A stretch of DNA of 62,942 nucleotides, filler included, from Hausera hauseri (lineage: Eukaryota): assembly GCA_046269625.1 (NCBI GenBank). It is 13 parts of 13 records of this genome, joined end to end, with 100 filler letters (N's around TTAATTAATTAA, not from the genome) between each part and the next. Parts side by side here need not be neighbours in the genome. Positions count along the whole stretch, not along the records: positions 1 to 6,740 come from JBJURY010070550.1; 12 more parts are not named here. One strand, written 5' to 3'. Positions 1 through 54,775 of this stretch are shown in pieces. Position 1 is the stretch's first letter; each line of letters opens with the position of its first letter. Position numbers and translations under genes: made by a program. The notes under the pieces are model-generated. The model saw only the letters and a program-made list of their open reading frames with translations. It had not been told where the DNA came from and made no database searches.

Positions 1-129
1 TAACTTAAACTCTTAGGGTACAAGCAGACTATTCGAGAACGAATAGTCCTAACCTGCTTATAGAAGTATTAATTTCATGTGAAAATATTGTTATAGTGGG
101 AGACGGTAAGGACCACCCCAACTGTAACA
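1..129 (+). repeat. 3' part of the 5' LTR of a Gypsy-like gag/env element
   Basis: Ends in ...TGTAACA immediately before a PBS. 71-129 (aatttcatgtgaaaatattgttatagtgggagacggtaaggaccaccccaactgtaaca) aligns with the end of the LTR at about 23550-23614 (aatttcaagtgcaaatattgttatattgtgggagatgaataggggccacccccatatatataaca). Confidence 0.8.
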
Positions 130-131
130 TT

Positions 132-148
132 TGGCGACCCTAGCAAGA
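132..148 (+). promoter_or_regulatory. Primer-binding site, tRNA-Arg-like (TGGCGACCCTAGCAAGA)
   Basis: TGG-initiated motif 2 nt after the LTR end. It resembles the TGGCGACC... PBS complementary to the 3' end of tRNA-Arg used by mdg1/412-type Gypsy elements. Confidence 0.75.
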
Positions 149-512
149 CAGTTTGTACCTCGCTAGACATTACTTTCGAGAGTCAATTAACGACATACAG
201 GCGAATAGCGCCATATACATCAAATAATTGTTGAATAATACGAATAAGAGTGTAAACTTGGGATCACAAGTTGTTAGAAGGGAATTAAGTAAAGATTAAT
301 CCTAGAGTAAACATTGAGAGGTTTAACTCGTGTCAAAACTTATTAGTAAACGGTAAAGAGAAACTTAAAGGGAAACACGGAATAAACTCTATATTAAAGA
401 CAAGGTAATAGACAAACATTGTTTATCCGACACTGAACTAATCAAGCAAGTAATTACCTCCGTTAAAGAATTCAAAGTTCCTCCTAGAATTCATAAAGTA
501 TATAAACCGAAG

Positions 513-1565
513 ATGGCAGCAGATAACCCAGCTATAGCACAGAAACTTGATATTTATACGTTCGATTCCCTGAACCTACCGGCATATGACGGTGACCCGG
601 ATGAGTTAAATGACTTTTTAAGAACTTATAAATTGCACGCAGAAGGTGCCAGTCTTGCGCCCGAAGTTATGATTAAACGACTGTCATTATACTTGAAACG
701 TCTGGCTGCAGAAGCCTATAGTGAACTTACCAATGACGAGAAGAAATCATGGTCCTCCGTAGTAGGAGCCCTGAACCGTAAACTGTTGCCGACGGTGACG
801 CCACAGCAAACGCTTATGGCTTTCCAAAACAAAACACAACAGAAGGATGAATCGGTCACCCAATTTGCAATCGCACTAAAGAAGCTTGCTAATAGTTACG
901 TGAGTACACTAAGGATAGCTAATGCGGTAAAGACTAATACAGATGCGGAACGCGAAGCGGCAGAAAAAGCTAGCCCGCCAGATTTAGATGTCACGATGAC
1001 AACTCAATTAACAAACGGTATATGGTCCAGAGACTTAGTTAAGCAACTAATTTTAGCTCGACCAGACAATTTTGAGACTGCATTACAGTTAGCTCAGAAC
1101 TTAGAAATGGCACTAGATAGATACGCTAGACAGGTTGATAGATATAATAGAAGTAATGACCGTGATAACCGGGATAGAAACCGAAACAATAGAAGATTCA
1201 ACAGTAATAATAAGAGTCGAGGCTGTGAAAATAGAGCCCAAGTGCCATTAATCGTAACACACGATATGATAATAGGAGCTTTAATGATAATAGGAGCACA
1301 TATAGTTCTTACAACAAAACAGTTTATATGCCGGATAGGAATCAAGGTAATGACCGAAGCAATAAGAATCGATATATAGTTAATCGAAGTTTCGAAAATA
1401 GAAATAACGGAATCGATAAACAAGCTCAACCAACTCAAAACAAAATAACAGGCAAACCCAAATCACCAGTGAATGAAGACGGACGACAAAGGATCGGCCG
1501 AGACGGGAATTTAATTTCTTATTAATGCGGTAAGGAAGGACATATAGCTAGATCGTGCCCTAATC
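513..1565 (+). pseudogene. gag: Ty3/Gypsy-type Gag (capsid plus degenerate CCHC knuckle), frameshifted
   Basis: Capsid motifs YDGDPDELNDFLRTY, LSLYLKRLAAEAY and QQKDESVTQFAIALKKLA. R/N-rich nucleocapsid region. After a frameshift near 1220-1330, SY*CGKEGHIARSCP (about 1517-1561) is a damaged CX2CX4HX4C knuckle. Confidence 0.85.
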
Positions 1566-4500
1566 CACGAAGCGTATTATTCTCAGAGACCAGTAAAACT
1601 AGCACAATAAAGGATAATTTGGAAGGAATCTATGGAAAACGAGGTGATAAAAACATGATTATCGAGATGCAGGACTTACAAAGATATATAAGAAATATGG
1701 GCGAATCTAATAATCCACCAGTAATCAAGGCCAGGAAGGCGTATGAAGAAAAGTTGCAGTTAATGGAAATTTATCATGGGTTAAGAGAACCAAAAACGGA
1801 GTGCAAAAATGCTATAGCACCCAGGAATACTAATATGCCCAGGAAGAGAAACCTAAATCAAGTCGCGGCAGAAGAAAAGCCGATAACGTCTTCAAGTGTA
1901 GACTTGGACGCGGATACCGAGGTCGCATCTCGAAATAAGGACAAAACAACAGATGAGGTTGAGAGCAAATTCATTGGCCCACTAATACTCAAAATAATCA
2001 AAAATAGAGGTAGAAGCCCTTCGCTTAGGAGAAGGTCACGAACTCGTTCACGATCTCCTATTAAAAAGGATTTAGAAAAGGAGGAAGACTTCATCATCAC
2101 TTTAAGAGATGAAACGGAGTTAAATACTCCTGTTGTAATCCAAGGCGTTTCTGAAACAGCAAATATTTCGAATACCGATGAAATTAATGAAATATATCCA
2201 CTACCACTTAGTGAAGAGAAATCAGAAGAAGAAAAGTCTATTAAGTTTGGGAAGATTAGAAAATCTTGGAAAAATACAAACGAACTAACTGAAATAAGAG
2301 ACACGCTGAATGATCCCGGAAGGTTACATGAGAGTCTGCAAAAACTCCAGCAGATGAGCAAACAGTTGGATATCTCCGGAAAAGAACAACAATTCATAGA
2401 AAAGCTATATAGAAAGCTTAAAACCTGCCTTCCGAAAGAGGAAGAAAACACACCTCGCGAACTCCAAGAGACGCCGCAAGACTTGATAGGAAGTTGGAAA
2501 AATAAATTGGAACTGTGGACAAGGAGTGGGATCGATTTTACGAAGATATGGTTGAACAAAAAAGAGCCGTTTCTCGATCAGGTAAATCAAGCGCAAGGAC
2601 TATTAAATGCACTAAAGGATAACCCAAAACTGAAACGCGTGAGGCGTAACTTAGAAGGATTGATACACGAGATCGAAGATGCGATCATTTCTTATCTTCA
2701 TAATAAGCCAGTATACAAACTGACAAATGCCGACCTAGAGATATTGGGCATAGACCCTATCAATATTCCCTCTTTGATAGCAATATGCAGTCTGATAAAG
2801 CCTAGTCCTCGATAATACCCGGATTTAAAAATACACATCGAAAGAGAAAACGAAATACGAGCTAAAATCAACGACATAAAGATCGGTGTAGTTCACCCTG
2901 AAAACGTAGAAGCACAGAGGATAATACGTGCTTGTCTTCTCAAATTATATGAGTATAAAGAAGAATTCAACCACATGAAGCATATCATAGAATTTGTACG
3001 ATGATCAGATCACGAACTAAAAGAAGTTCTTGGGACATTAGACGAAATAATCTACGCCAAACCGGCAATATCTAAACAATTAAAGAGGTGGATAGACTTG
3101 TTACCTTCCATAGCATAGATAATAAATGAAAGGCTAAGAGAATTCGCTATTGTCGAAACTATAACGAGACACCAATAGGAAGGAATGTTACTGGATATCG
3201 GTACGATGAAATACGAAACGAAATTGCGAATTAAATTCGAATCATTCCGAGAATTTGAACTTATGAGCAAGGATCAGGATCAAACAACACTAACAGAGAT
3301 ATATAGTATTATAGAAGAGAAGGAATTCTACAGAAAAAGAAACAAGCAAAGTGATCTTCGGCGAAGTTTGGCAAACATCCGTTGGGAAAGGATATAAAAC
3401 CTAATGCAGAAACCACTGAAAGAAATCTCAGCACAGGAAATAGAAACATTAGAAGTATGTAATGATCACCGGATTGCTCTGTCACAAACGATACAATATT
3501 TGCAGAATTCAGCAGAATGGACACCAGGTTTCGACCTACATTGCCACACCGAACTAAAGGAAATTAGAAAGAATCCTCAATTGGAGTGCGATGAAGCCAA
3601 GTTCATAGGCAGATTAATAGACACAATAGATCCGGACGCCGAAGTATTAAATCAAATGAACAAATTAATCCTACTATTAATACAAATGGCAGAAATTGAC
3701 GAAGTAGTAGCTGGACGACTAATAAATCGAATACGTCTGGTAAAAGAAACCCAGTTACGCTCCAAGAAGAGACAGCGCGAGCTAAACGAATTATTGAGAG
3801 AAGCAGAAGTTTATAAGAACAAGTATTCTTTTACGGAATCTGAAATTAATGACAAAATGGAATTTATGCAAAGATGGTAAAGAGACAGAATCGCGGAAGT
3901 AACTAGCTATCAAGAGAAAGCCTTGATACAACCAGACGAAATGTGCCGGTTAATAAAAATGATACAACAAGCTTGCGGAAATGGAGATGGATTTAGGATA
4001 TCCATAATGAATACATTGCAACCACAGATAAGAGAACTACGCGAAAGAGTCCAGGTTGGCCACGCGGCAGTAATGAACTACGCGTTACCGGACACGGATA
4101 ATGATGCCGAGTAGGATGAATACCTCCAAGGTTTAAACGAGCAAAGTCCAAGAAATCCAATACAAATTTATGAGTCAACTTAGGGTACACAGAAGACGAA
4201 ATTCAATGTGCAAATGCTACTTGGTCCCACGCTAGCTGAAAAGGAACTGAGTAGTGTACTGAAAATAAACAAGTGAAGATAGATTAAGAAATTTGATTCT
4301 GACCTTGACCAAGCTATCCAATGGAAACACCGCATACAGCGCTGTACCCAAGCTCCTAAAAAGAGAATACGCCAAATTGTTGAAAAACAAACCAGAAACA
4401 GAAATTAAAGTGAAACTATCATCCGAATGGATGAGCGACGAGGAATTTGAGTGCACTACCTATACCGCCGTTGGGGATATAAAACAGAGGATAATGGATA

Positions 4501-5300
4501 AGGATGGTAGGAAAGGAGTTAATTACCGACTCTATTTCAGGAGCAGGATATTAGATAAGCTAGAATCCTTGCCAGACGTAGGGATTATACCTCTCGAATA
4601 AAATCGAATAATAGCAATAATCGTCGGTGAGCAAACTAAGGACAAAGCCATGAGAAAGGCACATAAAGAGCATTGTGTCGGAAGAATCATGGGTATTCAT
4701 GATGCCGCAATGTATTTCGAATACTTACAGACTGATGATGACAAACCGCAGTAGGATAGGAACTTAGTCCCTCTAAGCGAAACTTCCCCACCGATCAAAG
4801 CAAAACGACTGGTCCGAAGACCAAGAAAAATCAAAGAAATTAACTATAATGCAGACCTAATTAGGGAATTGAGACAACTATCGGTACCAAACCCGAGTTC
4901 AGATAACAAAGAACTAATTGAGCTAATAAAAGACCTAATTAGGATAGTTAATTATACTGGATTCCAAGGAGACATATTATCCGAGAAAGAAAGATTAATA
5001 CATAATATAGCTCGGACAATGAAGATTTCTCGATTCAGATTATCTAAAAGCACCCTCTCTGACGAAACAGTAATTGATAGAATTATGATAGACAATACGA
5101 TGGAAGAATTAAGGACAGTCTTGATATATTCAGCAGTAAGAACTAACCCACTCCAGGAAAACGAATTCGACAAGATAATCGGGTTAGCTAAAAAAGCTGC
5201 AAGAAAGGTACCTAAAGAAATAAAGTGAACTAAATTATTCGAAAAAGACAAAATTACAAAAGGGGCCAATAGTTAGAGGACATAATACGAAATATTTCCC
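1566..5300 (+). pseudogene. Long uncharacterised continuation of the Gag frame (RS-rich patch, helical/coiled-coil), broken by isolated stops
   Basis: ORFs at 1619, 3185, 3404 and 3923 share the frame of the zinc knuckle and are separated only by single stop codons. ORFs at 4293 and 4869 share the next frame. RGRSPSLRRRSRTRSRSP lies near 2005-2060. No protease, RT, RNase H or integrase motifs were seen. Confidence 0.65.
4401..4630 (+). pseudogene. Ubiquitin-like (beta-grasp) domain within the retroelement polyprotein
   Basis: EIKVKL...TAVGDIKQRIMDKDGRKGVNYRLYFRSRILDKLESLPDVGI...*NRIIAIIVG aligns by eye to ubiquitin QIFVKT...[41 protein letters not shown]...STLHLVL. Confidence 0.65.
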
Positions 5301-5319
5301 CGAACAAAGGAAACGAATC

Positions 5320-6172
5320 CAATTGGTTAATCAACTTGCTGACGATAATGATGCTAGTAAAGCAGATAGGAGCACTCACTATATACGACTGCGAAAAATT
5401 CAAGGTGGGTCAGAAATATTCCTTGATGGACTTAGAAACATGTAAAGATGCGAGACCTCATAAGCTCGAGACAGCAGAAAAAATACTATATCAACAGCGT
5501 GAATTAATCGCAATGGATGCGATGGAGTGAATGGTGCGGAGATCCCGCAGAGTATTTCATTGTGGTAATATGCACGGTTATTCTTCAATAATCAAACTAA
5601 CCACATCATTAATCCCAATGAACTTGGATATACAACATTGTTTAGGAGCCCGGATAACCGGTAAAATGGTTTGGGTCGGCATGGGGTTAGAAACCCAAGA
5701 AGGAAGTGGCAGTAGGAAAATTAAATATGCACACCGGTTATTGTGTCGGAGAAGAATATGACACTGGAACGGGAAAGGAAGGATGGATAGTAGTAGTAAA
5801 TTTTTACGAAACCGAGTTAAGATCCCTAAAAGCAATGTTTTATAGTGTTACCAAAGTATTCACCAAAAATCAAAAATGTCACATTCAAGATGGTGCTTAT
5901 ACGTTCCGAAATTCAGTTGTTGTATGGAGCCCACCCTCAAGGCAAGACGTAATAGAACATCTCACACCAAAGATATTGATATTGGATACACATGGGTTAA
6001 AGTTTATTAGAAAGGATATGTTAATATGCTGCGATGTAGTTATGTATGATACCAACTACAAAGCGTTTTTCGTAGGAGAAACAGAAATTGACATGACAAC
6101 GTACTATTTGAATACACAAGATGTGCGGATCGAGGCTTACCTCAAAATTCGAGACGATTATTTTTATTACAA
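5320..6172 (+). pseudogene. env: Env-like glycoprotein of the chuvirus (Jingchuvirales) G type, N-terminal part, truncated by an insertion
   Basis: Hydrophobic signal WLINLLTIMMLVKQIGA followed by IYDC...YSLMDLETC...ME*MVRRSRRVFHCGNMHGYSS (TGA at a Cys position), then GYCVGEEY...WIVVV, KCHIQDG..VVW and CCDVVMYDTNYKAFFV. This Cys/motif pattern matches chuvirus-like glycoproteins. Contains a frameshift and a stop. Confidence 0.72.
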
Positions 6173-6740
6173 AGGAAAATGGCGGTACTGCCCCATTCTC
6201 GGGAGGGGGCGGTAATGGATAAATCTATTTAGCACATGTGCCGATAGATAGTGCACATTGTGCACTATTTATCCAAAAGTGCACTTTTCACAAATCGATC
6301 GCTGTACAGTGTACTATTGATCAAATCGATCTGCACTTTGTCCTAATCGATAGTGCACATGAGTGCACATAAATTAGTGCAAGTGCAAGTGTGAAAAAAT
6401 CAATAATATGGGATTTTCGAAAAATCAAAAATGGATAATTAGCACTGTGGACCAAGTGCAATCGGTAGGGCACTTGATATTGTATGTGAATGTGCAGTTA
6501 GAATTTAAATCGATTGATTGGTTTTCAAATAATTCTCAAGTGGGGCAGAACCGCCATAGGCCTTTCCGCTATAAATTTTAAATCAATGATATCAAAATGG
6601 CACATGTACAGACGTGTGCAGTAGACGATGCACTTTCAATCAGTGCACAATTCAAGTGTGCTGTGATTATCGATCGGTGTGCAGGTGCACTTTTCACTTT
6701 ACACACTTTTGCAATTGTGCAGCGTAGGATTGATGGAATT
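6173..6740 (+). mobile_element. Terminal region of the AGTAG-type repeat (copy A), probable Polinton TIR or non-autonomous derivative
   Basis: Colinear with 48312-48950; shared blocks include aagtgtgaaaaaatcaataatat, ccataggcctttccgctataaa and tgtgcagcgt.ga.ttgatggaat. Rich in GTGCAC and ATCGAT. Interrupts the env frame. Confidence 0.75.
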
Positions 6741-6840
6741 NNNNNNNNNNNNNNNNNNNNNNNNNNNNNNNNNNNNNNNNNNNNTTAATTAATTAANNNN
6801 NNNNNNNNNNNNNNNNNNNNNNNNNNNNNNNNNNNNNNNN
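6741..6840. other. Artificial contig linker (N44-TTAATTAATTAA-N44), first of 12
   Basis: Identical 100-nt spacers with stop codons in all six frames at 6741-6840, 11086-11185, 16881-16980, 21060-21159, 25263-25362, 29339-29438, 33446-33545, 40267-40366, 45245-45344, 50270-50369, 54344-54443 and 58768-58867. Adjacency across linkers carries no biological meaning. Confidence 0.98.
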
Positions 6841-7606
6841 GTTCGTTCATTGTTTGAATTAACCGCCGTGGATAATACGCCTACAGACGAAACAATCAGA
6901 GCAACCCAGGACCATTTCGTCGCGGTCAGTAAAGATTCGTTCTGTAGAATACTACACAACAATAAAATGTATTTACCCGACAATTTGTATTCTGCAAAGT
7001 TTGTTTGGCTACGGTATCAAACACTGTCAGGTTTTCAACCACAGTATCTAGGGTCCTACAAGCTAATCCAACTACATTCTCACAACGCCGTAATTCTTAG
7101 AGACGGAAAGGAACTAGCAGTCCATATAAATAACGTGAAACCTGATTTTCTGTAGACGACACATCTCCAACCGAAACTTCGACAACTTCTCTCACTCCTG
7201 CATTTCCTTCAGTTTCTACCCCCGTTCCTACTCCATTTTCTCCTCCCGCCTTTTCACCCGTTTCTACTCTTCCCTCCAACACCTTAACTTTGGGAACCCC
7301 TTCCGACAATTTCAAACACCCACCTTCGGTGACTACTTTTCCTTCTCCTAGTTTGCTTCAGCAAAAAACTACACTTAATGCGACAGAATGTAACATCTTT
7401 CCTCCCAAAGCGTCTCAACAAATGGAGATAAAAATAAAGACATTTCACAAAACTGTCACTTTCAGCAAGTACAGTAAGGAGAGAAACATCGAAGGTATAC
7501 AATGTCTGGTTCATACCAAAACTGAATAGCCAAATCACACTGTCTATTTTGTGATTTCAGTTATTCCATACTTATCGTTTTCAACTTAGCCACGGGGGTG
7601 GGGTGA
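6841..7606 (+). mobile_element. Gypsy family B: integrase C-terminus, 3' UTR and polypurine tract
   Basis: FQPQYLGSYKLI...VHINNVKP is a GPY/F-type integrase tail. PPT GGGGGTGGGGTGA at 7594-7606 precedes TGTTG. Confidence 0.85.
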
Positions 7607-7980
7607 TGTTGTGCCCAACGAGATTGTGCTTCGTTGTTTATTTCTTTTCACTGTAAATACAATTTTTACTGTTGCTTGTTTTACATTTGCCGACGAATTG
7701 TTGCATTTTGGTGTTCTATCTCGTCGTGTCGGAATATTTCATCGAGACCACAACAATTTGGAACGTGGATTCTTGTTTGAGATTGGCCACTCAATGTTTC
7801 GACAAATTAACGATAATCGATAATTGGCGGTTCAAAGACAGGTCGACCGGTACGTCAATAAAAGTTTTGATCGAATATTCATCGTTGTTCTACCAAAATA
7901 AAATTATCCATCGAATACCTGGCCTATCATAGTTATACTCTTCCTCAGTATAAAAGCAATGCTTGGATTAAGGACGATGC
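7607..7980 (+). repeat. Gypsy family B LTR (right end uncertain)
   Basis: Starts TGTTGTGCC immediately after the PPT, the same start as at 45137. The 3' boundary and PBS were not resolved. Confidence 0.6.
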
Positions 7981-7990
7981 CTTCTTCTCA

Positions 7991-9460
7991 ATGACGGAAA
8001 TAATTAAAATTACGAGTTTACAACAATGGTGTCAGAGAATTTCCTACAAATTTGTCAGAACCAACATGCTTAACAGAAGAGCTTTTAGTGATATCGTTTT
8101 GGATCATGGGAATGGAATATCAACAACCAAAGAAATTACCAGAAATGACGAATTTATAAAATTTGGTCAGATGCTGAAAGTCAATATCATCATCAAAGGA
8201 GACGCACCTACCAGTAATATAACAGCCACTGTTTTGAAACGAGTGCCTTGGCAACCAAGAATATTCGCAAATGACTTACACAATTTCGTTCACTGCGGAG
8301 ATAGTTGGGGCGACAAACTGATTTTAAATACGGACAGAGGAACAATTTTATTGGAAGAAAATACCGCACCATTACTCATAATCGAAAAGTCATCAGAAAT
8401 TAAATAAATCGAAATAGTCGAAAGTTTAGGGGTCATGATTTGTTGATGTGAAAAAGGTCGCGACTCGAAAATCGCAATCATCCAGATTGCTGATTTAAAG
8501 AAATCGGAAAATTTGCCACTGGTTAAATCTGACATTAAAAAATTGGTTTTGGATAAAAGCAGAGGCTGCCATATGTTTGCCGTCAGTAAACCACACATTC
8601 AGCCAATGAGACTCGTTGTGGCCGTGAACAGACGATTCCGAATTTATGTGTTTAAATATGCTGCTTGCAGCAGTTCACTCTCGTCCTGGAACCAATTTAT
8701 GAATAGTGCTATCACGGGATCATTTCAATTCGTTAGCGAATTGCCAACATTCGAGGTGGCCCATGTGGTAACAATTCTCGAAATAGCAGTGACAGACGAG
8801 AACCGAGTGGTACACATCTGCATTAAACACAGAAACCAGTTTGACATGATCAATGAAAAAACTGGAGATACGATTCATCTGTACCGAACTGATTCGCCAA
8901 AATCAAACATGACTGCTGTCGTTGATCTCTGTTCGGAAGAAGAACCAGAATTGTTACTTTGCTACAATAGAACCTGCCATTTTCAGAAACTTTCAAAAGA
9001 CTCAATCACCCTCGAACAGAACAGCAACACTGAATTTGACTTCACGTGGAATTTCGAACCAAAAATATCGTTTTAGCATTGCCGTATAATTTTGCATTTA
9101 CACATAACGCCATTGAAATCAGATTGGTTGTTAATGGCAGTTTGGTCCATACAATGTCGGTACCCAATTGTCGTCTTATTACTTCAAAGAATGACTTATT
9201 TTTTGTACGACGGCTGACAATCTTTGCAAAGAATTGATTGAAAGACAAAAGTCTACGAATATATCTCTTGATCGGCTTTACAAAATGACAAGTCCGCCAC
9301 CGTCTCTTGAAATGCCGGAAGCTATCCATTCTCCAACTTGTCGAAACTCTTTACTAATTCAAGGGCAACATATTTACAAAATATCACTTTCATCACTGTC
9401 TGGTTGCAATATTCAATCATCGCCGAACAAACAGAGATGTACAGACCAACTCTTTTAGCT
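7991..9460 (+). pseudogene. GARNL3: Intronless, decayed GARNL3-like fragment (end of Rap-GAP region plus CNH domain)
   Basis: RRAFSD, EFIKFGQMLKVNIIIKGDAPTS, PWQP, CGDSWG, KSRGCHMFAV, CIKHRNQFDMINEKTGD, EEEPELLLCYNRTCHFQ and AIEIRLVVNGSLVHT match GARNL3 motifs. In-frame stops at 8405 and about 8445, frameshifts near 9065 and 9215, and no introns over about 1.4 kb. Confidence 0.8.
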
Positions 9461-9619
9461 TCCATGTTTTCGGAAATAATGCCAGATAATTCATTGTGCT
9501 CTTCATCCCAACAAGTAACAATTCGTGATTATGCAATCAACACGACTACTGCGGAGATAATTTGTGATTTAGTATCGAAAACCGTATCAGGTTATGTATC
9601 TGCATTCGGTAAAAAATGA

Positions 9620-11085
9620 CCGCCACATTTGTCGAATATTGACTCCTGAACTTGTAAACAAATTCGAAAAGCTAAGAGAATGTTTAAAAACTGTGGAAAT
9701 ATTAGCTTTTCCCAAGCACGATGCACATCTGATCCTCACTACAGACGCCTCCACCACCGCTGTGGGCGCCGTACTTCATCAAATCGATAAAGGTGAGAAC
9801 CAACCTTTGGAATTTTTCTTACGCAAGTTAACACCTCCCGAAACTAGATACTCCACCTTCGACCGAGAACTACTGGCGATAGTTCTTGCTTTAAAACATT
9901 TCTCACATTTACCAACTGCTCGGCGTTTCACCATACAGACCGATCACAAACCTTTAATCAACATTATGACGATGAAACATCCGTCATCTAGGCAGGAACG
10001 TCAGATCTCTTACTTGTCGACGTTTAATTTCGAGATCAAACATATTAATGGTGTAAATAACTTAGACATCTATTTCCTTTCAAGATCCGTTAGCTCCATC
10101 AATTTTAAACCTATATTCACAGAAGATCAGCTGCAAGAAAATCAACCACCTTTAGACATGCTTAAATCTTTCCGATTTTACAACATCATTGACGGCGTAG
10201 CTTTTGACACTTCCAAACCAGGTCATTCAGTAATAATTCTCGCACCACCTTTACAACGGCAAGCGTTTAACAGCGTACATTCACTACATCACCCTGGTGC
10301 TAAGACAACTTTTCGCCTAATTCACCAGCAGGTAATATGGCGGACAATGCGTTCCAATGTCCAAGCATGGGTTAAGGAGTGCGTGGCTTGCCAGAAATTT
10401 AAAATCACCGAACATCTAAAGCCACAACTATATCACTTTCCTTGCACATCACGTTTCGAGTCCGTACATATAGATATCGTCGGCTCTCTTCCTCTTGACA
10501 ACGGTCATCAATTTATTTTAACCATGATGGATCGCGCCTCACGTTGGCCAGAAGCTGTTCCTCTACGAAGCACTAACACGGACACAATAGCCGACGTTTT
10601 TATCCGCACTTGGATCATCAGGTTTAAATCTCCTAGATTTATTATTTCGGACCAAGGCCCCCAATTCGAGTCCAATCTAATCAAATCACTCGTTAATAGA
10701 TTGGGAATCCGTCATATACACACTACGCCTTATCATCCCCAATCGAACGGTCTTATTGAGAGATTCCACAGAACCCTGAAAACGTCGCTAAAATTCTCGC
10801 TAAATCCAACAGTAGTTGGACTGTTCTTCTTCCTCTGATTCTGATTGGTTGGCGGAACACGCCATCCACTTCCACAGGATGCTCACGTACCGAAGCTTTA
10901 TTTGGAGCACCTGTTCGTTCATTGTTTGAATTAACCGTGCTGAATAATACGCCTACAGACGAAACGATCAGAGCAGTGCAGGACCATTTCGTCGCGGTCA
11001 ATAAAGATTCGTTCTGTAGAATACTACACAACAATAAAATGTATTTACCCGACAATTTGTATTCCGCAAAGTTTGTTTGGCTACG
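9620..11085 (+). pseudogene. pol: Gypsy family B RNase H plus integrase
   Basis: LTTDASTTAVGAVL, YSTFDRELLA and TDHKPL (RNase H). HSLHHPG...CVACQ (HHCC). HIDIVG, ISDQGPQF and YHPQSNGLIERFHRTLK (DDE). Frameshift near 10800. Confidence 0.93.
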
Positions 11086-11185
11086 NNNNNNNNNNNNNNN
11101 NNNNNNNNNNNNNNNNNNNNNNNNNNNNNTTAATTAATTAANNNNNNNNNNNNNNNNNNNNNNNNNNNNNNNNNNNNNNNNNNNN

Positions 11186-11395
11186 ACGTATAATTTTCTG
11201 AATACGATATAAGTCGGGTTTCTCTGACAGTACCTGCAGTTCCTATTCGTATAATTTACCACGTATCTTCTCATTGTCTCCTCTACTAAAATGTACTTGA
11301 CGGGTAATTGTTTTGTGTTGATTGTTGAAATTCGAAACATCTCATCGTTCCAATTCTGATTGAAACTTTTTATAAATGGCGTTGTGCTCAGCCAT
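11186..11395 (-). pseudogene. Polinton-type integrase C-terminal fragment
   Basis: FIKSFNQNWNDEMFRISTINTKQLPVKY, homologous to 51745-51945 of the Polinton integrase in contig 11. Confidence 0.7.
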
Positions 11396-14300
11396 TAGAA
11401 ATAGGGTATAGAAATAGGATGTGTGGCGGAAATATTGATAAAAGTAGGAGTAGACAAAAATGCAGAGATCGAGGCAGGGATCGATTTGGTAGGTGACGAT
11501 GTAGGAGCAGAAACGGTAGTAGTGGGATCATGCGTGGTAGACTGAGGAATAAAAATTGGGATAGAGGTGGGTACAGGTGTGAGGAATGAGGTTGATGTCT
11601 CGTGTACGTAAAAGGTTGGTTTAGATTTGTGATATGCACAACAACTTCTTTCCCTTCTTTGAGGATAATAGCGATGTGTGAATGCAGCTGTACCGATTTA
11701 TATATTCCTAAGTACTATGGTTGGAAACCGCACTGTGACTGGTTTTTTAGCCATACAAACTTTGCCGAGTATAAGGCTTCGGGTATGTAGGATTTGTTAT
11801 TGTGAAAAGTCTGCAAAACGAATCTTTGCTGATTGTAACGAAATGATCTTGTGCTGCTCGTATTCTTTCATCCGTAGGAATCTCTTCAAGAACGTTTAGT
11901 TCAAACAGTGACCGTACAGGGGTTCCGAATAAAGCTTCCGTTGGTGAACATCCCGTGGACGTGGACGCAGTGTTCCGCCAGTCCTGCAGGATGAACGGTA
12001 GAAGTTTAGTCCAATTGGTGTTTGAATATGCAAGGATTTAAAGTGCTGTTTTCAAGGTTCGGTGGAAACGTTCGAGGAGGCAATTTGATTGCGGGTTGAT
12101 ATGGTGTTGTATGAATGTGACTTATACCCAATCGGTTGACTACAGACTTGAACAGATTTGACTCGAATTTTGGACCTTGGCGTGAGATGATATAACGAGG
12201 AGATTTGAACCTACTAATCTACGTTAGGATGAAAGTATCGGCTATTGTGTCAATGTTTGTACTACGCAGTGGAATGGCTTCCGGCCATCGTAAGGAACGG
12301 TCCATCATGATCAGAATAAATTGATGGCCGTTGCCCATTAAAAGACCAACGATGTCAATATGTACTGTTTCAAAACGTGAAGTACAAGGGAAATGGTATA
12401 ATGGCGGTTTTAAATGTTTTATGGTTTATACTTCTGACAAGCCACGCACTCTTTAACCCATGCTTGTATATCGGAGCACATCTACGGCCAAACTACTTGG
12501 TATTGAAGTAAGCGAAAAGTTGCCTTGGCACCAGGATGATGTAATGAATGTATACTATCAAATGCTTGTTTGTGTAAAGATGGGGCAAAAATTATTTTAG
12601 AATGTCCTGGTTTGGAAGTGCCTAAAGCCACGCCGTCGACGATGTGGTGTGACTTGAATGATTTGAGAATATCTTGAAATGGTTGATTTTCTTGGAGTTT
12701 TATCTATGTAAAGATTGGCGAAAAATTGATTGAACCGACTGATCTAGATAGGAAATCGGAAACTAGATTGTCAACGCCGTCGATGTGTTTAATATCAAAG
12801 TTAAGTGTGGACAAATACGAAATTTGCCGTTCTTGTCGAGTTGAAGGATGCTTCATTGCCATTATATTAATCAACGGTTTGTGATCACTCTGTATAACAA
12901 AATGATGAGCTGTAAGTAAGTGAGAAAAGTGTCTTAAGGCAAGAACTATTGCCAGCAGTTCCCAATGGACAGTTGAATATCTAGTTTCTGATGGCGTTAG
13001 TTTTCGGGAAAAGAATTTTAGAGGCTGATTTTCACCTTTATACAATGTTTGATGCATCTGTGGTTAAAATTAACTAGGAGTCAGGCTTACGAAATGCTAG
13101 TATTTCAACAGTCTTTAGTCCTTCTCATATTCTATCGAACTTATTCACTAGTTGTGGTGTCCACACGATTTTTTGGTGTTTTTTCATCCGCTTAAATGTG
13201 CAAAATTCGCCATGAGTTCCGAACAATATGGAATATATTTTTGGACGAAATGCAGAGTAGCAAATAAACTGTGCATTTCTGTTGTTGTCTTAGGTAGTTG
13301 GACATATTTAAGAGTCTCGATTTGATCAGGCTGAAGTGAATGGCCGTTTTAATAGACAATATTTCCGAGGAAATTAACGAGTTTTTGAAGGAAGTTACGT
13401 TTCGCAAAATTGATCTGTAGATTGAAGTGGTTAAGTTGTTTGAAGATAGATCGTAGATGTACTTCGTGTTGTTTAACAAAAGAAGAGGCAACCAAGATGT
13501 CAATATATGGATGCGCAAAAGTGAAATCTGAAAGGAATGAATCGATGTGTCGCTGAAAAGTCTACGCGGCATTCTGGAGACCGAAAAGCATATACAAGTA
13601 CTCATAAAGACCAAAAGGTGTGGAAACTGCAGTTTTCTCGATGTCTTCCGGTGCGACAGGAATTTGGTGGTAAGCTTTGGCTAAATCAGCTGTTGAATAA
13701 ACTGAAGTAGTATTAAGTCAATGTAATGTGTCTTGGATTAATGGTAGTAAATATGCATCCATTATGGTTAAAGTATTAAGCTTGCGGTAATCGCCGCATG
13801 GTCGGAAGGATCCATCTTTTTTGGACAACGTGGAGAAGCGAAAACCACGGGGATTTAGATCTACGGACAATACCTGATTTTTCGAGTTTAAAAAATTTCG
13901 TTTCTACTGCCTGCCTACGACGCGATGACAATGGACGGACATTTTGTCGAATTGGTCTTTGGTGTTGTGTAATTATATGGTGGTAAGTGCCGTTTACAGG
14001 GGACAAGAAGTTTTCATGAATTGTTGTAAGCTTACGGGTAGTTGCTGGAATATTGGAATTGATGTTGAACCAAGGTTGCTAACAGTACTTTGTAAATGTT
14101 GGTTAATTGTTGATGAGGAATAGAGTGGAATTTGTTGTAGGATGGTCGTGTCTGAGATCTTATTTGAGTAAGTATTGTTGTTCAATGATTTTACTGAAGA
14201 TATAAGATCGTGAGTGTCGACACTGAGCTGTGACTGACTATCGACATTGTCCTTTGACAGCTTACGTGGTAAAACTTGATAGTGAAGAGAAGTAGGATGT

Positions 14301-15900
14301 TATGTTGACTGTTTTATGATTGTTTGCTTACTTACCGTTGGTTGTGCTGTCGTCGAGGTGCTGCCTATTTCTGTACTACAGTCTTTAGGTGTATTTGATT
14401 TCCGTCATCGTTGGTTACAATAAACCAGCAAGTTGTAGTGTGACAGGAAATCGGAGCCAAGTATTGCCGTCTGGATGTTAGAGACTGTAAACGTCCAATG
14501 AAATGCTGAGAAAAATTTTGAGAGACTGAAAGATAGTTTGCAAGTTCCGGCAATATGAAGGGGTATACCGGAGGCGGTGTGTAACGGTTTTGTTTTAAGT
14601 GAAGAATGCTGAACCGTAAAAAAGTGGTAGTAATGAAATCGCAGCACCGGTATCGATGAAAAGTCTATGTATTAAATGTTACAGTGGAGATAGCAGCTTT
14701 TGGTGTAAAGACTACAAATGAATTGTGTCGGCAAGAAGTAGGTAAGTTGCCTTTGCCAGATTCTGCCATGAATACTGGAGGCGAAATCAGTTTTTTGGAT
14801 TGGTGAATTGGGATGGTTAATGTTAGAGAAACTGGAATGTCTATCAGTGGTGCAGTTACGGTTACTTTTATAGTTACAGCCTGGAATACAATTCCGAGCA
14901 TTAAATCCAAATTTTTCATGATAGATGCAAATTATGTTATCTGATCGTACATGCCAGAAATAATATCTACAGCCTAAACAGTATTTTTTGCTTTGTTATT
15001 AAATTTGTTATGATATTAGCATATAAATGACCGCGTTGGTGACGGTGTTCGATTTCTTGAAACAAAACGTGCTAGATGAATGAGGAAGCATTCCGTCGAT
15101 GTGAGGAAAGGTCATTCAGCTTATCATTGATGTTATTGATTGTATGTTGTAATGCCGCATTTTCGGAGCATAAGTGGTTCAATTGCGATTCGATAGAATT
15201 ATTTCGTTGACTGTCGTTGGTCGTGATTGCAGCTGATATGATGGGTTGTGATTGTATTTGTAAAACTTCGTGTGCTTTATCGGCAAATTTAGCTAGTTTA
15301 TCTAAAGCTGTAGAATCCTCAACAACAGTAAGTAAAGCCCTAATTTAAATTGGTAAAGCATTAAGAAAATATCGACGGAGTAGATCCGGATTGTGTTCCT
15401 TGGTGACACCCAGGGTACGTAAGTGAGCCAATAAGGTGCGTAAGAAATCACTAGGTTTTTGTGTTCCCATTGCGTTTTCATTAAAGAATCGTTGTATTAT
15501 CGAGTCAATTGGTGGTTCTATCAGTTTTAATACAGCATTGAACAAATGCGTATAAAAGTCAGGGTGTTGAAAGATGTCCAGTAAGTTATGGATTGGGGTC
15601 TTCATAGAGTTTGGCAGAAGGTAGAGTAGATTATGGGCTTTGGTTAACGAGTCGGTAGTGCCGTTGGATTGTAGCCAAAGTTGATGGAAGTGGAGCCAAG
15701 CCTTACTAGAGTTTTCATTGTCTGTAAGATATTCAGAGCATTGTGAAGGTGCAATTGTAGGGGATTTGTGAGAAAATCTAGTATCGGTTGAAGGAGTTAG
15801 ATGGTTCGATTTTGGATAGTAGACAATGAATTTGGGTTTTGTAATCACCTTATTTAAGATGTCACTGGTTGGTTAAAAAATCACACCGCCGCGGATTCTA
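11396..15900 (-). mobile_element. Gypsy family B element, near full length and heavily decayed (gag-PR-RT-RH-INT)
   Basis: Gag 15345-15848 is homologous to 40508-41188. Protease-like AILGSDFL. RT IVRRSKSPWFSLLHVVQK. RNase H YSTVHWELLA..SDHKPL. Integrase remnants. Many frameshifts. Confidence 0.88.
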
Positions 15901-16299
15901 GGATAAATGTGTATACAGAAGTAGTATTGTGAGGACGTGATGTGTGGGAGGTCAGTTGAAATAAATCCATTGTGAGTCAAGTAGAAGTCATTGAAGGCGG
16001 TGGATTTATGAATGAGGTCATATAATTGTGTCGATACATCGTGTTACATGTGCCGTATGTATTGATTTATTATATACAAAAAGGTAGATAGAAAGTGACG
16101 GTGATAAACGATAAGATGGGTAGCGTGGTATCTCCATATATATCGTCTCGTGTTTTGTAGCTGTTGAGTAATCCGTCGAAAACATGGTTCTGTCTCGGCC
16201 GGTCCCAATTATCCAGACAGGTTTAACTCCATCATTGAACCCGGTCGCAGGTGTGATAAGACCCAAAACGTTCCTTTTTGCGATTAATTCGATTGCTTT

Positions 16300-16490
16300 C
16301 AAGTCAAGGAACTTTTTGAAAACATCTAAAATTCTATCTCCTTCGTAATCGGTCACTTTGTCTGAATCTTTAGGGAAGTATTCAACAGCAGGAAAACCTT
16401 GAATGAGGGTTCCTTCGACTCCATTAGCAGTAGTACCCACTATTGCGGTGATTGTACCAAAATGATTTTTATAAGTTTCACCAAAAAGAT
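16300..16490 (-). pseudogene. Protein disulfide-isomerase C-terminal (a' domain) fragment
   Basis: TTANGVEGTLIQGFPAVEYFPKDSDKVTDYEGDRILDVFKKFLD resembles PDI ATANEVE..VQSFPTIKYFP...IDYNGERTLDGFKKFLE. The CGHC active site is not visible. Confidence 0.6.
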
Positions 16491-16752
16491 CCCAAAAATG
16501 ATGGATCTATTGATTCATAGTTCTAACAGTTTTAGAGGCGACTTCTGATTTCATTTTCTGAATGTCCCGAGGGCGGAATAAAAACTATCGATTCAAATTT
16601 GACTACTCAATGCTTTTCATGTCTGTCACAATAATTTTTTCAGCTGTTTTTTTACCTTCATACAATATTACATTGTGTTTCTTATCCATCGTGGATAAAT
16701 GAGTATTCATCTTAGGCCATAATGGCAAGATGTAGCATCTGATAATTATATA

Positions 16753-16880
16753 CACCCCCCGTCAAAAGTTTGAGGCCACCTTGAAAAAACTGATTTATAT
16801 TTATTTTTAACATCATACACCCTTTTTGTTGAGATTGTTTGCAACGAATAACAAGATATAACTATTTTACCAAATATTTA
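16753..16880 (+). mobile_element. Tc1-like transposon terminus
   Basis: TA followed by CACCCCCCGTCAAAAGTTTGAGGCCACC resembles Tc1-family TIRs. Runs to the contig end. Confidence 0.45.
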
Positions 16881-17275
16881 NNNNNNNNNNNNNNNNNNNN
16901 NNNNNNNNNNNNNNNNNNNNNNNNTTAATTAATTAANNNNNNNNNNNNNNNNNNNNNNNNNNNNNNNNNNNNNNNNNNNNTGTGACTTTCTTGTGTGCTA
17001 CTGTTGCTTAAACAACACTTAGGGGTCTTTTTGACACGTGACCTAGCAGCTCTGTTCCAGTCCTAACAGATCTGTATTTAAAAAAAAACGAACAAACAAA
17101 CAAACATACCACTAAAATGGTTGAAAATCAATCCTTCGCTGTAAAATATATTTTTTAAAATGGAATAAAGCTGTAAATTTGTAGAAATGGTGTCATAGTT
17201 CAGTCGTCAGGATACTTAATTTTATTGCGGTGAATATTTCCAGCATCTCCCAACAACTATTATGTCTCTTTGCAG

Positions 17276-21159: not shown

Positions 21160-22175
21160 AAGAGAGCAATTGAATCATGGAAAGGATTTCAAGTTAGTAC
21201 AGCAAGAAGTGACGCAATGCCTCTATGGATACGTCTTAGTGGGGTATCAAATAGAGAGGATAATGAAGAAATTAGCCATACCGGAAACGTATATAGCCGC
21301 AGTAAGGGAAATAGAAACCCACCCAACTATTATGCGACAAGTAGGAATCAAGGTTGAAGAAAAAAGGAGTCATATACCACTGACCATGGAAGGCTATTTT
21401 AAGTTAATGGTAGAGGCCATGATCGGGGAAAACATAAAAATAAGCAGAGTGCAATCTGCAAATCAAAGATCCCAATATCTAAGACATATAAACGCTGGAC
21501 TAAAGTGGGAACATGAATGGATTCCCACCAACCCCGGACAAAACTTACGAAATTTCCCAAATTCTGAGCGACTCAGCACACGATACCGTAAACATTTTCG
21601 CCCATACTCTCCACCCAGGAATGTCGAAATCAAACCAGAATGGAATTACCAAATAATTATACAAGGATTGAAGATAGAAAAAGCAAGGAATAAAGAACCC
21701 ACAGATGAAAAACCCAGCACAAGTTATGGCACCACAGCAGATAATAATCTGTTTAAAATACCAGAAGTTCCTCGGAAATACGTAGAAGACAGTCATAGAA
21801 ACCCAGAGACCGAAACCGGAAAAACCACGAAAAGGAAAACCTCCTGTTTTGATTATTGATTTAAAAAGAAAAGTAAAGAAGGAGAAAAAGGACTAAAGGA
21901 AGGACCCAGATCGGAACGAAAAATCCAAGACCAAGACAACGAGCACTGGAACCTTCAAAACTAAGTAAACGGAAAGAACAAATTACTGAAATAAACGTCT
22001 TACGGAAAAGACATTGACTGAAGATGTTCACTATGCTACTACGGCAGATTACCCCAGGATACTAATAGCCACAGAGTATTACAGCAAACAAAAGATTAAA
22101 GAAGCAATGTTTTTTGTCAAACTAATGCCTGCCTGACAAGTTTATGAGAATACTTATGTCTGGGAAAATCCTAAG
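21160..22175 (+). pseudogene. Uncharacterised A-rich coding region of an LTR element 3' end
   Basis: 229-aa open frame plus interrupted continuation, with the same A-rich strand bias as contig 1. Lies upstream of the RING ORF, PPT and LTR. Confidence 0.5.
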
Positions 22176-22643
22176 ATGGAAAAATACGTTGCCCCGATAT
22201 TTCAGTTCAAAAGAAACGGTAACATCTTAGTCCCTGTGGATAAGTCAGTCAAGCTGTTGCTAAAGAAACAGTACCAAAAATACCGATCGACTGGTGAAGT
22301 TCCCCATTTAGATCGAGATACTATCATCGATTGGACCCTAATAGCTGTGGGATGCGACCCTAAGAAAAGCTCGATAAATCCAAAACAGAAAAGAATATAC
22401 GCTTATTTATATCAAGATGAAGAAGGGTTAATAATGGAGACTATTGAGATTTTGTTGGGAGTATATCTTGACGACGAAAATTGGGCGAAAGAGGAGAACG
22501 AATGTTTCGTATGTGAGGCAAATCTGAAGCAGGAGTATGTAGTGTTAAATAACCCCGATTGCCAACATAAGTACTGCAGAGACTGCCTAGAGAAGTGGAC
22601 ATTGGATAATGGGAAGACCACATGTCCAGTATGCCGGGCTTAA
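22176..22643 (+). CDS. C3HC4 RING-finger (E3 ligase-like) ORF inside an LTR retroelement
   Basis: CFVC-x13-CQHKYCRDCLEKW-x8-CPVCRA retains the full RING pattern, the conserved Trp and the linchpin Arg. It lies about 210 nt upstream of the PPT. Confidence 0.82.
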   Translation: MEKYVAPIFQFKRNGNILVPVDKSVKLLLKKQYQKYRSTGEVPHLDRDTIIDWTLIAVGCDPKKSSINPKQKRIYAYLYQDEEGLIMETIEILLGVYLDDENWAKEENECFVCEANLKQEYVVLNNPDCQHKYCRDCLEKWTLDNGKTTCPVCRA

Positions 22644-22866
22644 GCAGCCGATCTGAAGTATTACTCAAACGGTAGTTACACCAGAATCGTTCGAATAAAA
22701 CCTTACCACAGTTATAAATTGGAAACAAATCTCAGAGAGGACCAGCCTAGTACCAGTTCTGGATCCAGCTTAAGACAACGAATGGAATTGTTACGAAGTC
22801 CCCATCGCAGCGGCACCTCTCCTGATGCAATGGGCACACCCGAGGATGCCGTTCAGGGAGGAGAAA

Positions 22867-23614
22867 TGTTGTAATAACGGTATCATGCAATAAGCAAATG
22901 TAAATTGTAGATAATGAAAATGGTCAAATTGTATTCTAATATATAAAATTGGATAAATAGAAAATTGTAGAGATTTAGTTAGTTTAATTAATATTGGTGG
23001 CTTATAAATGTCAAAATTTCGGAGAAATTATTTAACGCTCGAGTGAAATATTAGGCAATAAAACAAATCAAACCATTGAAATTGAACAAGAAACGTAGGC
23101 GGAAGAAATCAGGTGAGCCGACAAAACTATATAAGGTTTCAGTTTCGTGGCAGAATTAGAATTATTTGGACCCAGTTAAATGTGCGAGATTACGTTGGAA
23201 AATTGAATTAGTTACTGTTCAGACTTTTTAGACGCAAATTAACTCGATCGTCGAAATTCATAGACTTTTATCGTGGACATCTGATCTATTGTGAAGTTAT
23301 TTGGGGAATTTTTGTGTTAATACAATTTGCTGTATTTTTTAGAAATTCCCCTATAGTTTTCCTTCGCTCCTTAAGGGTGATTAGACTACAATAAGGTTAA
23401 AATCAATACTTAAAATAAATATTTAAGAGAGAGACATTATTAAAGTTTATTGCAAAGGACCGCAAGCATTGACCAGAAAAGGACGTTATAAAATCGATAA
23501 GGTACATTCAGTCTATCCGATAACGGTAGACAGAACCTCACAGCCAATAAATTTCAAGTGCAAATATTGTTATATTGTGGGAGATGAATAGGGGCCACCC
23601 CCATATATATAACA
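22867..23614 (+). repeat. 3' LTR (about 750 bp) of the RING-carrying element, related to the LTR at 1-129
   Basis: PPT AGGGAGGAGAAA at 22855-22866, then TGTTGTA...TATAACA imperfect terminal IR. The 3' end is homologous to 71-129. Confidence 0.78.
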
Positions 23615-24599
23615 ATTGTAAATGCAATTGTAAATACAAATATTCTAATATATAAATAATTGTCGAATGCTGACGTTGATGAGAACCTCAAGAAGGCATA
23701 CCAATTCTTGAAGCTAATCAATGATAAATCTGATTTCGAATACGATGAGTCTAATGAAGAATACTTGATTCATATACATTTACCATATAATTGTTTTTTT
23801 TTCTATGGTGGACGAGCTATATCTGTTAAAGGAAATAATCTGCGGTTTTCTCAGAGTCCACGGTTGTCTATCACGGGTCTTACGACAAAGAGATCCAACG
23901 ACACCTTGCTCTACAGCTGTTATGGACTCAGGACTAGAAAAAAGGTAGGCAAATTTACTATATTTCTATTTTGTAACAATTTGTTAAATAACACCAACCA
24001 AAGCCGTTCAATCACTACACTCAAGTTTCCTCAGTGTAGATAATTCGTCTTACAAATTTGCCTGCCTACCCAATAAACTAAGTAATAATACACATTACGT
24101 GATGTATCATTCAGAAAGTATGATATACAAGGTTGTCGAAAAATTACCAGACGTATGTCCTATTTTAGTCATTACATCACTCTCTGACACTTATTTTCAT
24201 TACCCTAATGCCTGTGGTATACAATCTGGTACTATACCGTTTATTGAAAATATACCAAATGAACCATCGCAAAGAAAATTTACGATCCCGCGGTCAGAAA
24301 GATCAGTCAATACAATGCCGAGAGGTTGGGCGCACCCGTGTCCTATGTACCACATTATACACTGAATATAGCTGGAAACTTCATCTCCTTTACTGTCTTG
24401 CTTGAAAACAGACACATATGTATATATACTACATACATCATACTGCTTCTATCGCTCTTTATCTGGCGTGCTTCAACGAGAAATATTCTCGACTAATTTT
24501 CGTTTTAGTTTTAACGGATTTTTTTGCAGCAAACATACATTATCACTAACTACACTCGCTGCTCTTCGACAACTATAGCTACTGCATACTATCGTCTGC

Positions 24600-36245: not shown

Positions 36246-37173
36246 GATACACAAGAGTTTATTTTGTATGGAAAATAATGATTGTCTTATAATAATAATA
36301 ATGATATATGAACCGGATTTAAATTAAGAAGCTTCCGAAATTAGGACACCTTTGCAAAAATTCACCAATTTTTAAAGTTAAATGTCCAATAATCAGCCTT
36401 TTTCAAAGAATTCACATGCCTGATTCGTTCATACAACCCTTAATGTCACACTATTTTCGTCAGATAAGAAATATTTAAATAACAATCAAAAATCATACTA
36501 ATACCATTCCGATACAGTAAACAATTAAATGAAATAAATACAAACTTAGCCCCATTTAGCCTCTGTAATTTAACCGATAATACATTTACCTATAAACATA
36601 TAGAATTAATTCATTTAAGCTTTTATATGAATCTGTGTATTTCCCAAATATAAAACTAATCAATAATTATTCAAAATAACCTAGATTTATATTACATATT
36701 ATCAAACTTTTTGCATAAAAATCTATATAGCATGCGTTAATTAATATACACATGCAAATAATTTATTTTACTTTCGTCCTAAGAATGGAGAACGCAAATA
36801 AAATAATGAAATGCAAATCATCTGTTCGAGGTGTCAAACAATTAATATCTAACAACTATGTCCAATTGGGTTTGGTGAGTTTTGTATTAAACTTACTATT
36901 ATTTTCTAAAAATCAAATGGTAGGGTTGAAGTGATTGATATATGAATTAACATGAATTAGAATTTTTACATTATAATTGGAAGAGTTCTCAAAGCAAATA
37001 ATATAGCCATATAGTATTAAAATATTTACAAACATTTATATTCATTTCATAACTTACATTTACTCCGTTATTGCATTTTTTAAACAAAGCTTTACATAAC
37101 TTTGCTGCCTTTTTATCTCTACTTATTATTCATGTTACTATTTTGTATTAAATTTTAGAGTATAAATTTTCAA

Positions 37174-54323: not shown

Positions 54324-54775
54324 TATACTCTGGCCAATGGACTNNNNNNNNNNNNNNNNNNNNNNNNNNNNNNNNNNNNNNNNNNNNTTAATTAATTAAN
54401 NNNNNNNNNNNNNNNNNNNNNNNNNNNNNNNNNNNNNNNNNNNAAATAATAATATGAATGTGGGTGTTTGTGCTAAAATACTTAGTTCATTAAAGACTTG
54501 AACAGAGGTAAGATAAGGATGTGTTTCATATTTTGTGGTCAGTATTCGTTTAGAGCTCGTAGCGTTAACATGTAGAATAGTCTTAGTGCATTGTTGCGAA
54601 ATAGTTAGTTGCTTAGTTTACAGTTTCGTAGTTTAGTGTTTTATAAGACGTAGACACTTTTAGTGCGTGTTTTAATGAATTAAATATCATCTGTGTTTAA
54701 TAACTATCTAAAAGCAATGTAAATAAATTCCTTGTTAGTAGTGACCTACTTCGGCGGCAGGCCAATAAACTCAGC

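What the first reader, a model, noticed from the sequence alone, without database searches (positions are those of the whole stretch)
1..6172. Pol-less LTR element: Gag fused through unknown domains to a chuvirus-type fusion glycoprotein
Seen: LTR end, tRNA-Arg-like PBS and a Gypsy Gag with a CCHC knuckle. About 1250 further codons follow as one near-continuous frame (isolated stops, about two frameshifts) and run into an internal signal peptide and a chuvirus-like G ectodomain. No protease, RT, RNase H or integrase motif lies between gag and env. Known: chuvirus-like glycoproteins have been captured by BEL/Pao and Gypsy elements, normally with pol present. Inference: a non-autonomous, potentially enveloped satellite element that replaced pol with accessory domains and borrows RT/IN in trans, or an unusual gag-X-env-pol order.
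Basis: partly seen in the sequence, partly recalled or inferred. Interest (0 to 1): 0.88.

Follow-up and report, generated by a model that had tools for sequence, protein, structure and literature searches.

The report
Truncated Burro-like gag-env-pol retroelement copy
This is a decayed copy of an envelope-carrying jumping gene, cut off halfway through its envelope gene by another repeat and the end of the contig; its polymerase genes likely lay after the envelope gene, as in its relatives and in the published Burro elements of flatworms, so it is probably not a polymerase-less element.

Summary
The anatomy is real: LTR end, Arg-like primer site, gypsy-type gag, a broken zinc knuckle, about 1,250 further codons and a Monjiviricetes-type fusion glycoprotein (PF24664), with no pol before env. 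The 'pol-less satellite' reading is not supported. Env is cut at about half its length by an unrelated high-copy repeat (~6170), and the contig ends at 6740, so nothing after env is visible. Of 18 relatives with a near-complete env, 17 run on into a protease and 12 into RT, RNase H and integrase; none has pol before env. Part of the 'unknown' stretch (4278-4622) matches a helical + ubiquitin-like module found in 11 of 15 relatives where that region is visible. The order Gag–CCHC–ubiquitin-like–BCL2–Env–protease–RT is published for planarian Burro elements (PMC6431247), and gag-env-pol order for nematode, bryozoan and flatworm errantiviruses (PMC13524379). What stays unexplained is a ~900-residue insert (1566-4270) with one short homolog. 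Pol was not seen in this family itself, so a pol-less family is unlikely but not excluded.

The parts
1..129 (+). 3' end (U5) of the 5' LTR; the contig starts inside it
   Evidence: 70% identical over 135 columns to the end of a related LTR at 23489-23618, ending at the same five bases
132..143 (+). Primer-binding site, tRNA-Arg-like
   Evidence: 10 of 12 bases to the Arg(CCG) entry of supplement 1 of PMC13524379; relative L005 has the same first 8 bases upstream of its gag
513..1230 (+). Gypsy-type Gag (capsid part), frame 3
   Evidence: profile of relatives' gags iE 7e-31 at 582-1109; 23-35% identity to 10 relatives that also carry the env; PF03732 E 0.002
1235..1560 (+). N/R-rich linker and one broken CCHC knuckle, frame 2, stop at 1523
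   Evidence: PF00098 E 0.005
1561..4273 (+). X1: about 900 codons, charged and probably helical, 8 in-frame stops; no family assigned
   Evidence: coding by stop depletion; one homolog, P0001, 150 aa, 33% identity, E 4e-14, to 3668-4063; covered by contigs of other copies
4278..4622 (+). Helical + ubiquitin-like module shared with the family, frame 3, stop at 4599
   Evidence: profile built from relatives only: iE 7e-9; 31 bits against a maximum of 10 in 500 shuffles; PF00240 E 0.02; model of the L004 homolog pLDDT 94.7, ubiquitin fold
4755..5228 (+). Probably helical domain at the place where six relatives have a BCL2-like stretch; likeness not detected here
   Evidence: BCL2-like profile of relatives: 2.9 bits, 42 of 500 shuffles as high; no Pfam match
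5273..5719 (+). Internal signal-like stretch (about 5327-5385) and N-terminal env ectodomain, frame 2, stop at 5528
   Evidence: PF24664 E 7e-10; 18 homologs; hydropathy
5691..6176 (+). Env ectodomain continued, frame 3, ending at about half of the protein
   Evidence: env profile positions 126-201 and 242-322 of 615
6165..6740 (.). Unrelated high-copy repeat that interrupts env and runs to the contig end; not part of the element
   Evidence: 70-72% matches starting at 6176 to copies at 48321 and 62838; summed depth about 500,000 against 470-17,000 over the element

Best explanation
This is the decayed 5' half of a Ty3/gypsy LTR retrotransposon whose envelope gene lies directly behind gag and accessory domains, and whose protease, RT, RNase H and integrase likely followed env but are hidden here by a later insertion and the contig end. 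In intact relatives one frame of about 2,700-4,800 codons encodes Gag, zinc knuckle(s), a helical + ubiquitin-like module, often a BCL2-like domain, a signal-like segment, a gB-type fusion ectodomain with membrane anchor, one to five aspartic protease domains, RT, RNase H, integrase and a further tail (shown: domain order). The likely mechanism (inferred): the polyprotein is made from the full-length RNA; the internal signal and the anchor put only the env ectodomain into the ER lumen; the proteases cut out the cytosolic parts; a tRNA-Arg primes reverse transcription. The ubiquitin-like domain has no di-glycine at its end, so it would act as a built-in module, most likely engaging the host ubiquitin-proteasome system or setting the turnover of the polyprotein. 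This copy is dead (13 stops, 4 frame changes).
For: Env ends where another repeat begins, and the contig ends about 570 bases later. 17 of 18 relatives with near-complete env continue into a protease, 12 of those 17 also into RT-RH-IN, none has pol before env (Pfam). Subsets not chosen for length agree: 6 of 6 hits that extend past a full env have a protease next, and 3 of 3 metagenome loci that extend past env have protease-RT-RH-IN in frame. Gag, the ubiquitin-like module and env all point to the same proteins. The env tree puts the window with the module-bearing relatives (89/89, below the starred level). The order is published: PMC6431247 section 7; PMC13524379 passages.
Against: No pol of this family was seen: no host genome is held and the laid contigs gave no view past env. 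The nearest relatives are only 23-39% identical, and the window is a long branch (1.93), so the inference is by analogy. None of the relatives carries X1, and the BCL2-like profile does not match here. One search was limited to proteins of 1444-4598 residues, which favours elements with pol. P0005 ends at the env membrane segment, and 5 of the 17 end before RT.
Confidence: 0.82

Rival explanations
1. The family is a true non-autonomous, pol-less derivative (gag-X-env only) that is mobilised by an autonomous Burro-like partner sharing its LTR and primer site, with X1 a lineage-specific cargo.
For: No pol in 1-6740. X1 is far longer than the spacer of any relative and has only one short homolog. 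A related LTR (70%) exists in the window. [quoted passage not shown]
Against: Absence of pol upstream of env is the normal state of this lineage, so it carries no weight. X1 sits before the family's ubiquitin-like module and does not take the place of pol. The part that would decide lies beyond the contig end.
Confidence: 0.12
2. 1566-5300 is an unrelated insertion or captured host gene private to this copy, between an ordinary gag and env.
For: Most of the stretch has no database match.
Against: 4278-4622 matches the family module. All 30 bins of the contig are covered in run X1, with summed depth over this stretch (about 2,500-10,400) in the range seen over gag and env. The frame runs on from the knuckle without a break.
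Confidence: 0.03
3. It is an Anakin-like BEL/Pao element or a free chuvirus glycoprotein insertion next to an LTR element.
For: PF24664 match; Anakin and solo chuvirus glycoproteins are described in mosquitoes (PMC7642597, passages).
Against: The gag matches gypsy-type gags of the env relatives. The relatives' pol has its best solved-structure match in Ty3 Gag-Pol (E 1e-156). All long env hits are gag-env-pol polyproteins.
Confidence: 0.03

Closest known systems
Burro / GYPSM1 giant gypsy-like LTR retrotransposons of planarians (PMC6431247, section 7 read; Grohme 2018 not held, seen only as cited there)
   Same: One polyprotein with Gag, CCHC, a long accessory region, a Ubi2/SUMO-like motif, then env in frame between gag and pol; env resembles mononegavirus fusion glycoproteins. 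My relatives also show the BCL2-like stretch (6 sequences, weak Pfam support) and one has ankyrin repeats (P0020).
   Different: Here one broken knuckle (Burro has two or three); no MATH, BIR or ankyrin match and no detectable BCL2 likeness in this copy; X1 has no assigned family. Pfam listed no dUTPase in the six full-length relatives scanned. Size and host could not be tested, and no Burro sequence was available for direct comparison.
GAG-ENV-POL errantiviruses with HSV/gB-type env in Nematoda, Bryozoa and Platyhelminthes (PMC13524379: abstract, passages, part 1 of section 6, supplement 1 rows; Sacco 2022 nematode ERVs seen only as cited there)
   Same: gB-type env placed between gag and pol in a Ty3/gypsy element.
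   Different: The passages and the supplement search (terms 'ubiquitin', 'Bcl') showed no account of accessory domains between gag and env. None of the 15 nematode and 9 flatworm rows I saw lists an Arg primer.
Anakin (Pao + chuvirus glycoprotein) of mosquitoes (PMC7642597, passages)
   Same: Glycoprotein of the same broad kind.
   Different: BEL/Pao backbone; the element here and its relatives are Ty3/gypsy with env before pol.

Membership tests
Ty3/gypsy LTR retrotransposon | LTR end, tRNA primer site, gag with CCHC | tested here: met
   (knuckle broken)
Ty3/gypsy LTR retrotransposon | pol in the order PR-RT-RH-IN with gypsy-type RT | not testable with these tools
   Not visible in this copy; met in 12 relatives (Ty3 is the best PDB match)
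GAG-ENV-POL errantiviruses (PMC13524379) | HSV/gB-type (Monjiviricetes-like) env | tested here: met
   PF24664 E 7e-10, above cut-off; the class III fold itself was not modelled
GAG-ENV-POL errantiviruses (PMC13524379) | env follows gag with no pol between | tested here: met
   with positive control
GAG-ENV-POL errantiviruses (PMC13524379) | pol follows env | tested here: inconclusive
   contig ends inside a later insertion; true for 17 of 18 relatives
Burro | ubiquitin/SUMO-like motif between gag and env | tested here: met
Burro | BCL2-like motif just before env | tested here: not met
   2.9 bits, 42 of 500 shuffles as high; the profile rests on only 6 divergent sequences
Burro | MATH, BIR or ankyrin domains in the polyprotein | tested here: inconclusive
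   no Pfam match in 1526-5225; these could lie in the unseen half
Burro | two or three CCHC knuckles | tested here: not met
   one broken knuckle
Burro | giant size (internal region up to 25 kb) and planarian host | not testable with these tools
   6.7-kb contig; no host genome held
Anakin (BEL/Pao) | BEL/Pao gag and pol | tested here: not met
Non-autonomous pol-less LTR element | both LTRs present with no pol between them | not testable with these tools
   3' end of the element is not on the contig

The most novel reading that the evidence does not exclude
A high-copy, enveloped satellite of the Burro-like lineage that has dropped pol, keeps Gag, the ubiquitin-like module and env in one polyprotein, and carries a 900-residue orphan cargo domain, spreading with the enzymes of an autonomous sister that shares its LTR end and Arg primer.
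Probability: 0.12. Interest if true: 0.7.

Novelty: new member of a known kind. Interest (0 to 1): 0.27.

Why it matters
As found, it matters modestly. It adds a divergent member to the gag-env-pol retroelements. It also shows that the Burro-type module order (ubiquitin-like, BCL2-like, env, several proteases) occurs in compact elements of about 9-15 kb in metagenome contigs, and gives a confident model of the conserved helical + ubiquitin-like module. How a single polyprotein balances capsid, envelope and enzymes, and what the ubiquitin-like and anti-apoptosis-like domains do, is open; one paper reports in passing that Burro1 protects planarian stem cells through a RING-BIR region (PMC13465017, passages). 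A truly pol-less enveloped satellite would be more striking, but nothing here shows one.

Tried and rejected
No host genome is held, so no copy walk was possible. Word-based protein searches with 1526-2812 and with gag against 2751-5000-residue proteins found nothing; both are weak negatives. Viral-contig scans found one chance match to a phage gene with the env start and nothing with gag or the env alignment; the prokaryote genome scan found nothing. PDB sequence search with env gave nothing. A single-sequence model of 4269-5225 had pLDDT 36 and was discarded. ESM Atlas gave no usable hit for 3398-3877 or P0001. X1 shows no internal repeats. My recalled idea that the helical half of the module is a TFIIS N-terminal-type domain got no support (Pfam; PDB profile of 3 sequences); the fold searches aligned only residues 75-154, so that half is untested. 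The BCL2 reading of 4755-5228 was tested and not supported; in relatives it is weak (Pfam E 0.001 for P0005, 0.018 for L004; many Bcl-xL/Bcl-2 chains at E 0.17-0.56). No RNA holder was listed. Troyka (PMC12440569, part 1 of 5 read) does not fit: it has CG termini. Paper searches: one search returned only unrelated papers; (LTR retrotransposon + ubiquitin-like domain + gypsy + polyprotein) returned 0, yet the motif is in print under another wording; two searches listed nothing on a pol-less gag-env gypsy family (listings only). Sacco 2022 and Grohme 2018 were not held; their text and supplements may describe these domains in more detail. Three look-ups of earlier scan notes gave nothing on this element.
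Full report
Setting. The window is a string of short contigs joined by N linkers; the finding lies on the first, 1-6740. No host genome is held. The element is broken and was read frame by frame, with X at stops.

Observation. Bases 6-133 match the end of another LTR in the window (23489-23618; 70% over 135 columns, E 5e-14 within that small comparison). That LTR begins with TG behind a purine tract at 22855-22866 and ends in the same five bases. A primer site follows at 132-143; it matches the tRNA-Arg(CCG) entry in supplement 1 of PMC13524379 at 10 of 12 bases. Gag is at 513-1230 (profile iE 7e-31). Only half of a CCHC knuckle survives. The coding stretch has 9 stops in 1013 codons where 72 are expected, then 3 in 320 where 23 are expected, and there are four frame changes. 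A signal-like stretch at about 5327-5385 precedes a PF24664 match (E 7e-10). Profiles of protease, RT, RNase H and integrase built from relatives find nothing in six frames of 1-6740; the RT, RNase H and integrase profiles do find other decayed gypsy copies in 6841-16880. So the anatomy is right apart from the number of frameshifts and the completeness of env.

Why pol is missing. Env homology covers profile positions 2-322 of 615 and stops at 6176. From the same place the DNA matches a different repeat with copies at 48321 and 62838. In run X1 that repeat has a summed depth near 500,000, against 470-17,000 over the element. The contig ends inside it. The env membrane anchor and everything after it are therefore not on the contig.

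What relatives show. A full HMMER scan of 1.84 billion representatives with frame 2 of 2201-5719 gave 19 hits: 18 to env and one, P0001, to X1. Fourteen of the 18 were scanned with Pfam and all match PF24664; the other four were scored with my env profile. Six extend past a full env, and all six have a protease next. The rest are fragments or end in env; two (P0014, P0017) join a partial env to an unrelated domain and look like gene-model chimeras. L002, L003 and L005 have env-protease-RT-RNase H-integrase in one frame of 3426, 3703 and 2693 codons; L004 ends in env. A further search limited to 1444-4598 residues added 8 polyproteins, one of them L003's. In all, 17 of 18 relatives with near-complete env continue into a protease, 12 of these into RT-RH-IN, and none has pol before env (P0007 and P0020 are one 90% cluster). 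The same proteins hold the gags that match the window's gag.

The 'unknown' region. Relatives share a 154-position module between knuckle and env. It is present in 11 and absent in 4 (L005, P0015, P0028, P0029) of the 15 where the region is visible. A profile built without the window matches 4278-4622 at iE 7e-9, and the segment scores 31 bits against a maximum of 10 in 500 shuffles. AlphaFold2 on the L004 copy with a 12-row alignment gave pLDDT 94.7: five helices, then a beta-grasp. Foldseek returns SUMO1, ISG15 and ubiquitin (E about 3e-6, rmsd 1.7); VIA-align gives Z 12.6, rmsd 1.5, 75 residues. This model is of a relative, not of the window's copy. Six relatives carry a weakly BCL2-like stretch before env; the window's domain at that place did not match their profile. 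X1 (1561-4273) remains unassigned. It is not private to this copy: run X1 (which may be the window's own source, so it is not independent) has 29,354 contigs laid over all 30 bins, differing from this copy at 1,383 listed places, 1,029 of them transitions. On a tree of 25 env N-terminal pieces the window falls among the module-bearing relatives (89/89) on a long branch, with no outgroup.

Mechanism. Shown: domain order and continuity in relatives; decay and truncation here. Inferred: one polyprotein from the genomic RNA, env ectodomain threaded into the ER by the internal signal and anchored, proteolytic release of Gag and the enzymes, priming by tRNA-Arg, and possibly enveloped particles. The ubiquitin-like domain lacks a terminal di-glycine in the window, L003 and L004, so it is likely a built-in interaction or turnover module. 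None of this was tested.

Comparison with print. [quoted passage not shown] PMC13524379 (passages) reports GAG-ENV-POL elements with gB-type env in Nematoda, Bryozoa and Platyhelminthes. The element works like these. I do not file it as a Burro member, because the BCL2 motif and the knuckle count were not met and size, host and RT could not be tested.

Verdict. A real but ordinary truncated copy of a known, little-studied kind (confidence 0.82). A pol-less family is possible (0.12) only because the deciding DNA is off the contig. Interest 0.27.

Noticed in passing
window 21160-23614: 3' end of a related LTR element: an orphan ORF (21161-21856, no Pfam match), a RING-finger ORF (about 21990-22640, PF13639 E 3e-9), a purine tract and a ~750-base 3' LTR whose end is 70% identical to the finding's LTR end. 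It may be the far end of a sister family.
   Followed up: partly
window 6165-6740, 48321-49173, 62838-62942: Very high-copy non-coding repeat rich in TGCAC palindromes; the other two copies begin with the reverse complement of a CTAG end next to a G/C-rich hairpin-like stretch, which I recall as Helitron-like. Not tested.
   Followed up: partly
L002:10617-12104 and L003:12085-13470: Both complete relatives carry an extra ORF after pol with an RNase T/DEDD exonuclease match (PF00929 E 1e-5 and 1e-3); extra DEDDy ORFs are described for rotifer LTR elements (PMC5408684).
   Followed up: partly
L002, L003, P0003, P0020, P0022-P0027: The polyproteins hold two to seven aspartic-protease-like domains, some after the integrase, and several end in a further hydrophobic, membrane-protein-like tail.
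   Followed up: no
L004:3058-3060: A single stop separates the gag-module-BCL2-like frame from the env frame without a frame change; either decay or programmed read-through.
   Followed up: no
window 7871-9400: A CNH-domain coding stretch (PF00780 E 7e-13) lies between pieces of a gypsy element, possibly a captured host gene.
   Followed up: partly
window 37159-38842: RING, TRAF zinc finger and MATH pieces of a TRAF-like gene.
   Followed up: no
window 54704-58767: Nearly intact two-ORF non-LTR retrotransposon (gag-like ORF with zinc knuckles, endonuclease-RT ORF), by eye.
   Followed up: no
P0012: A complete eukaryotic retroelement polyprotein is filed in NCBI as a hypothetical protein of a Flavobacteriaceae MAG, most likely binning contamination.
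   Followed up: no
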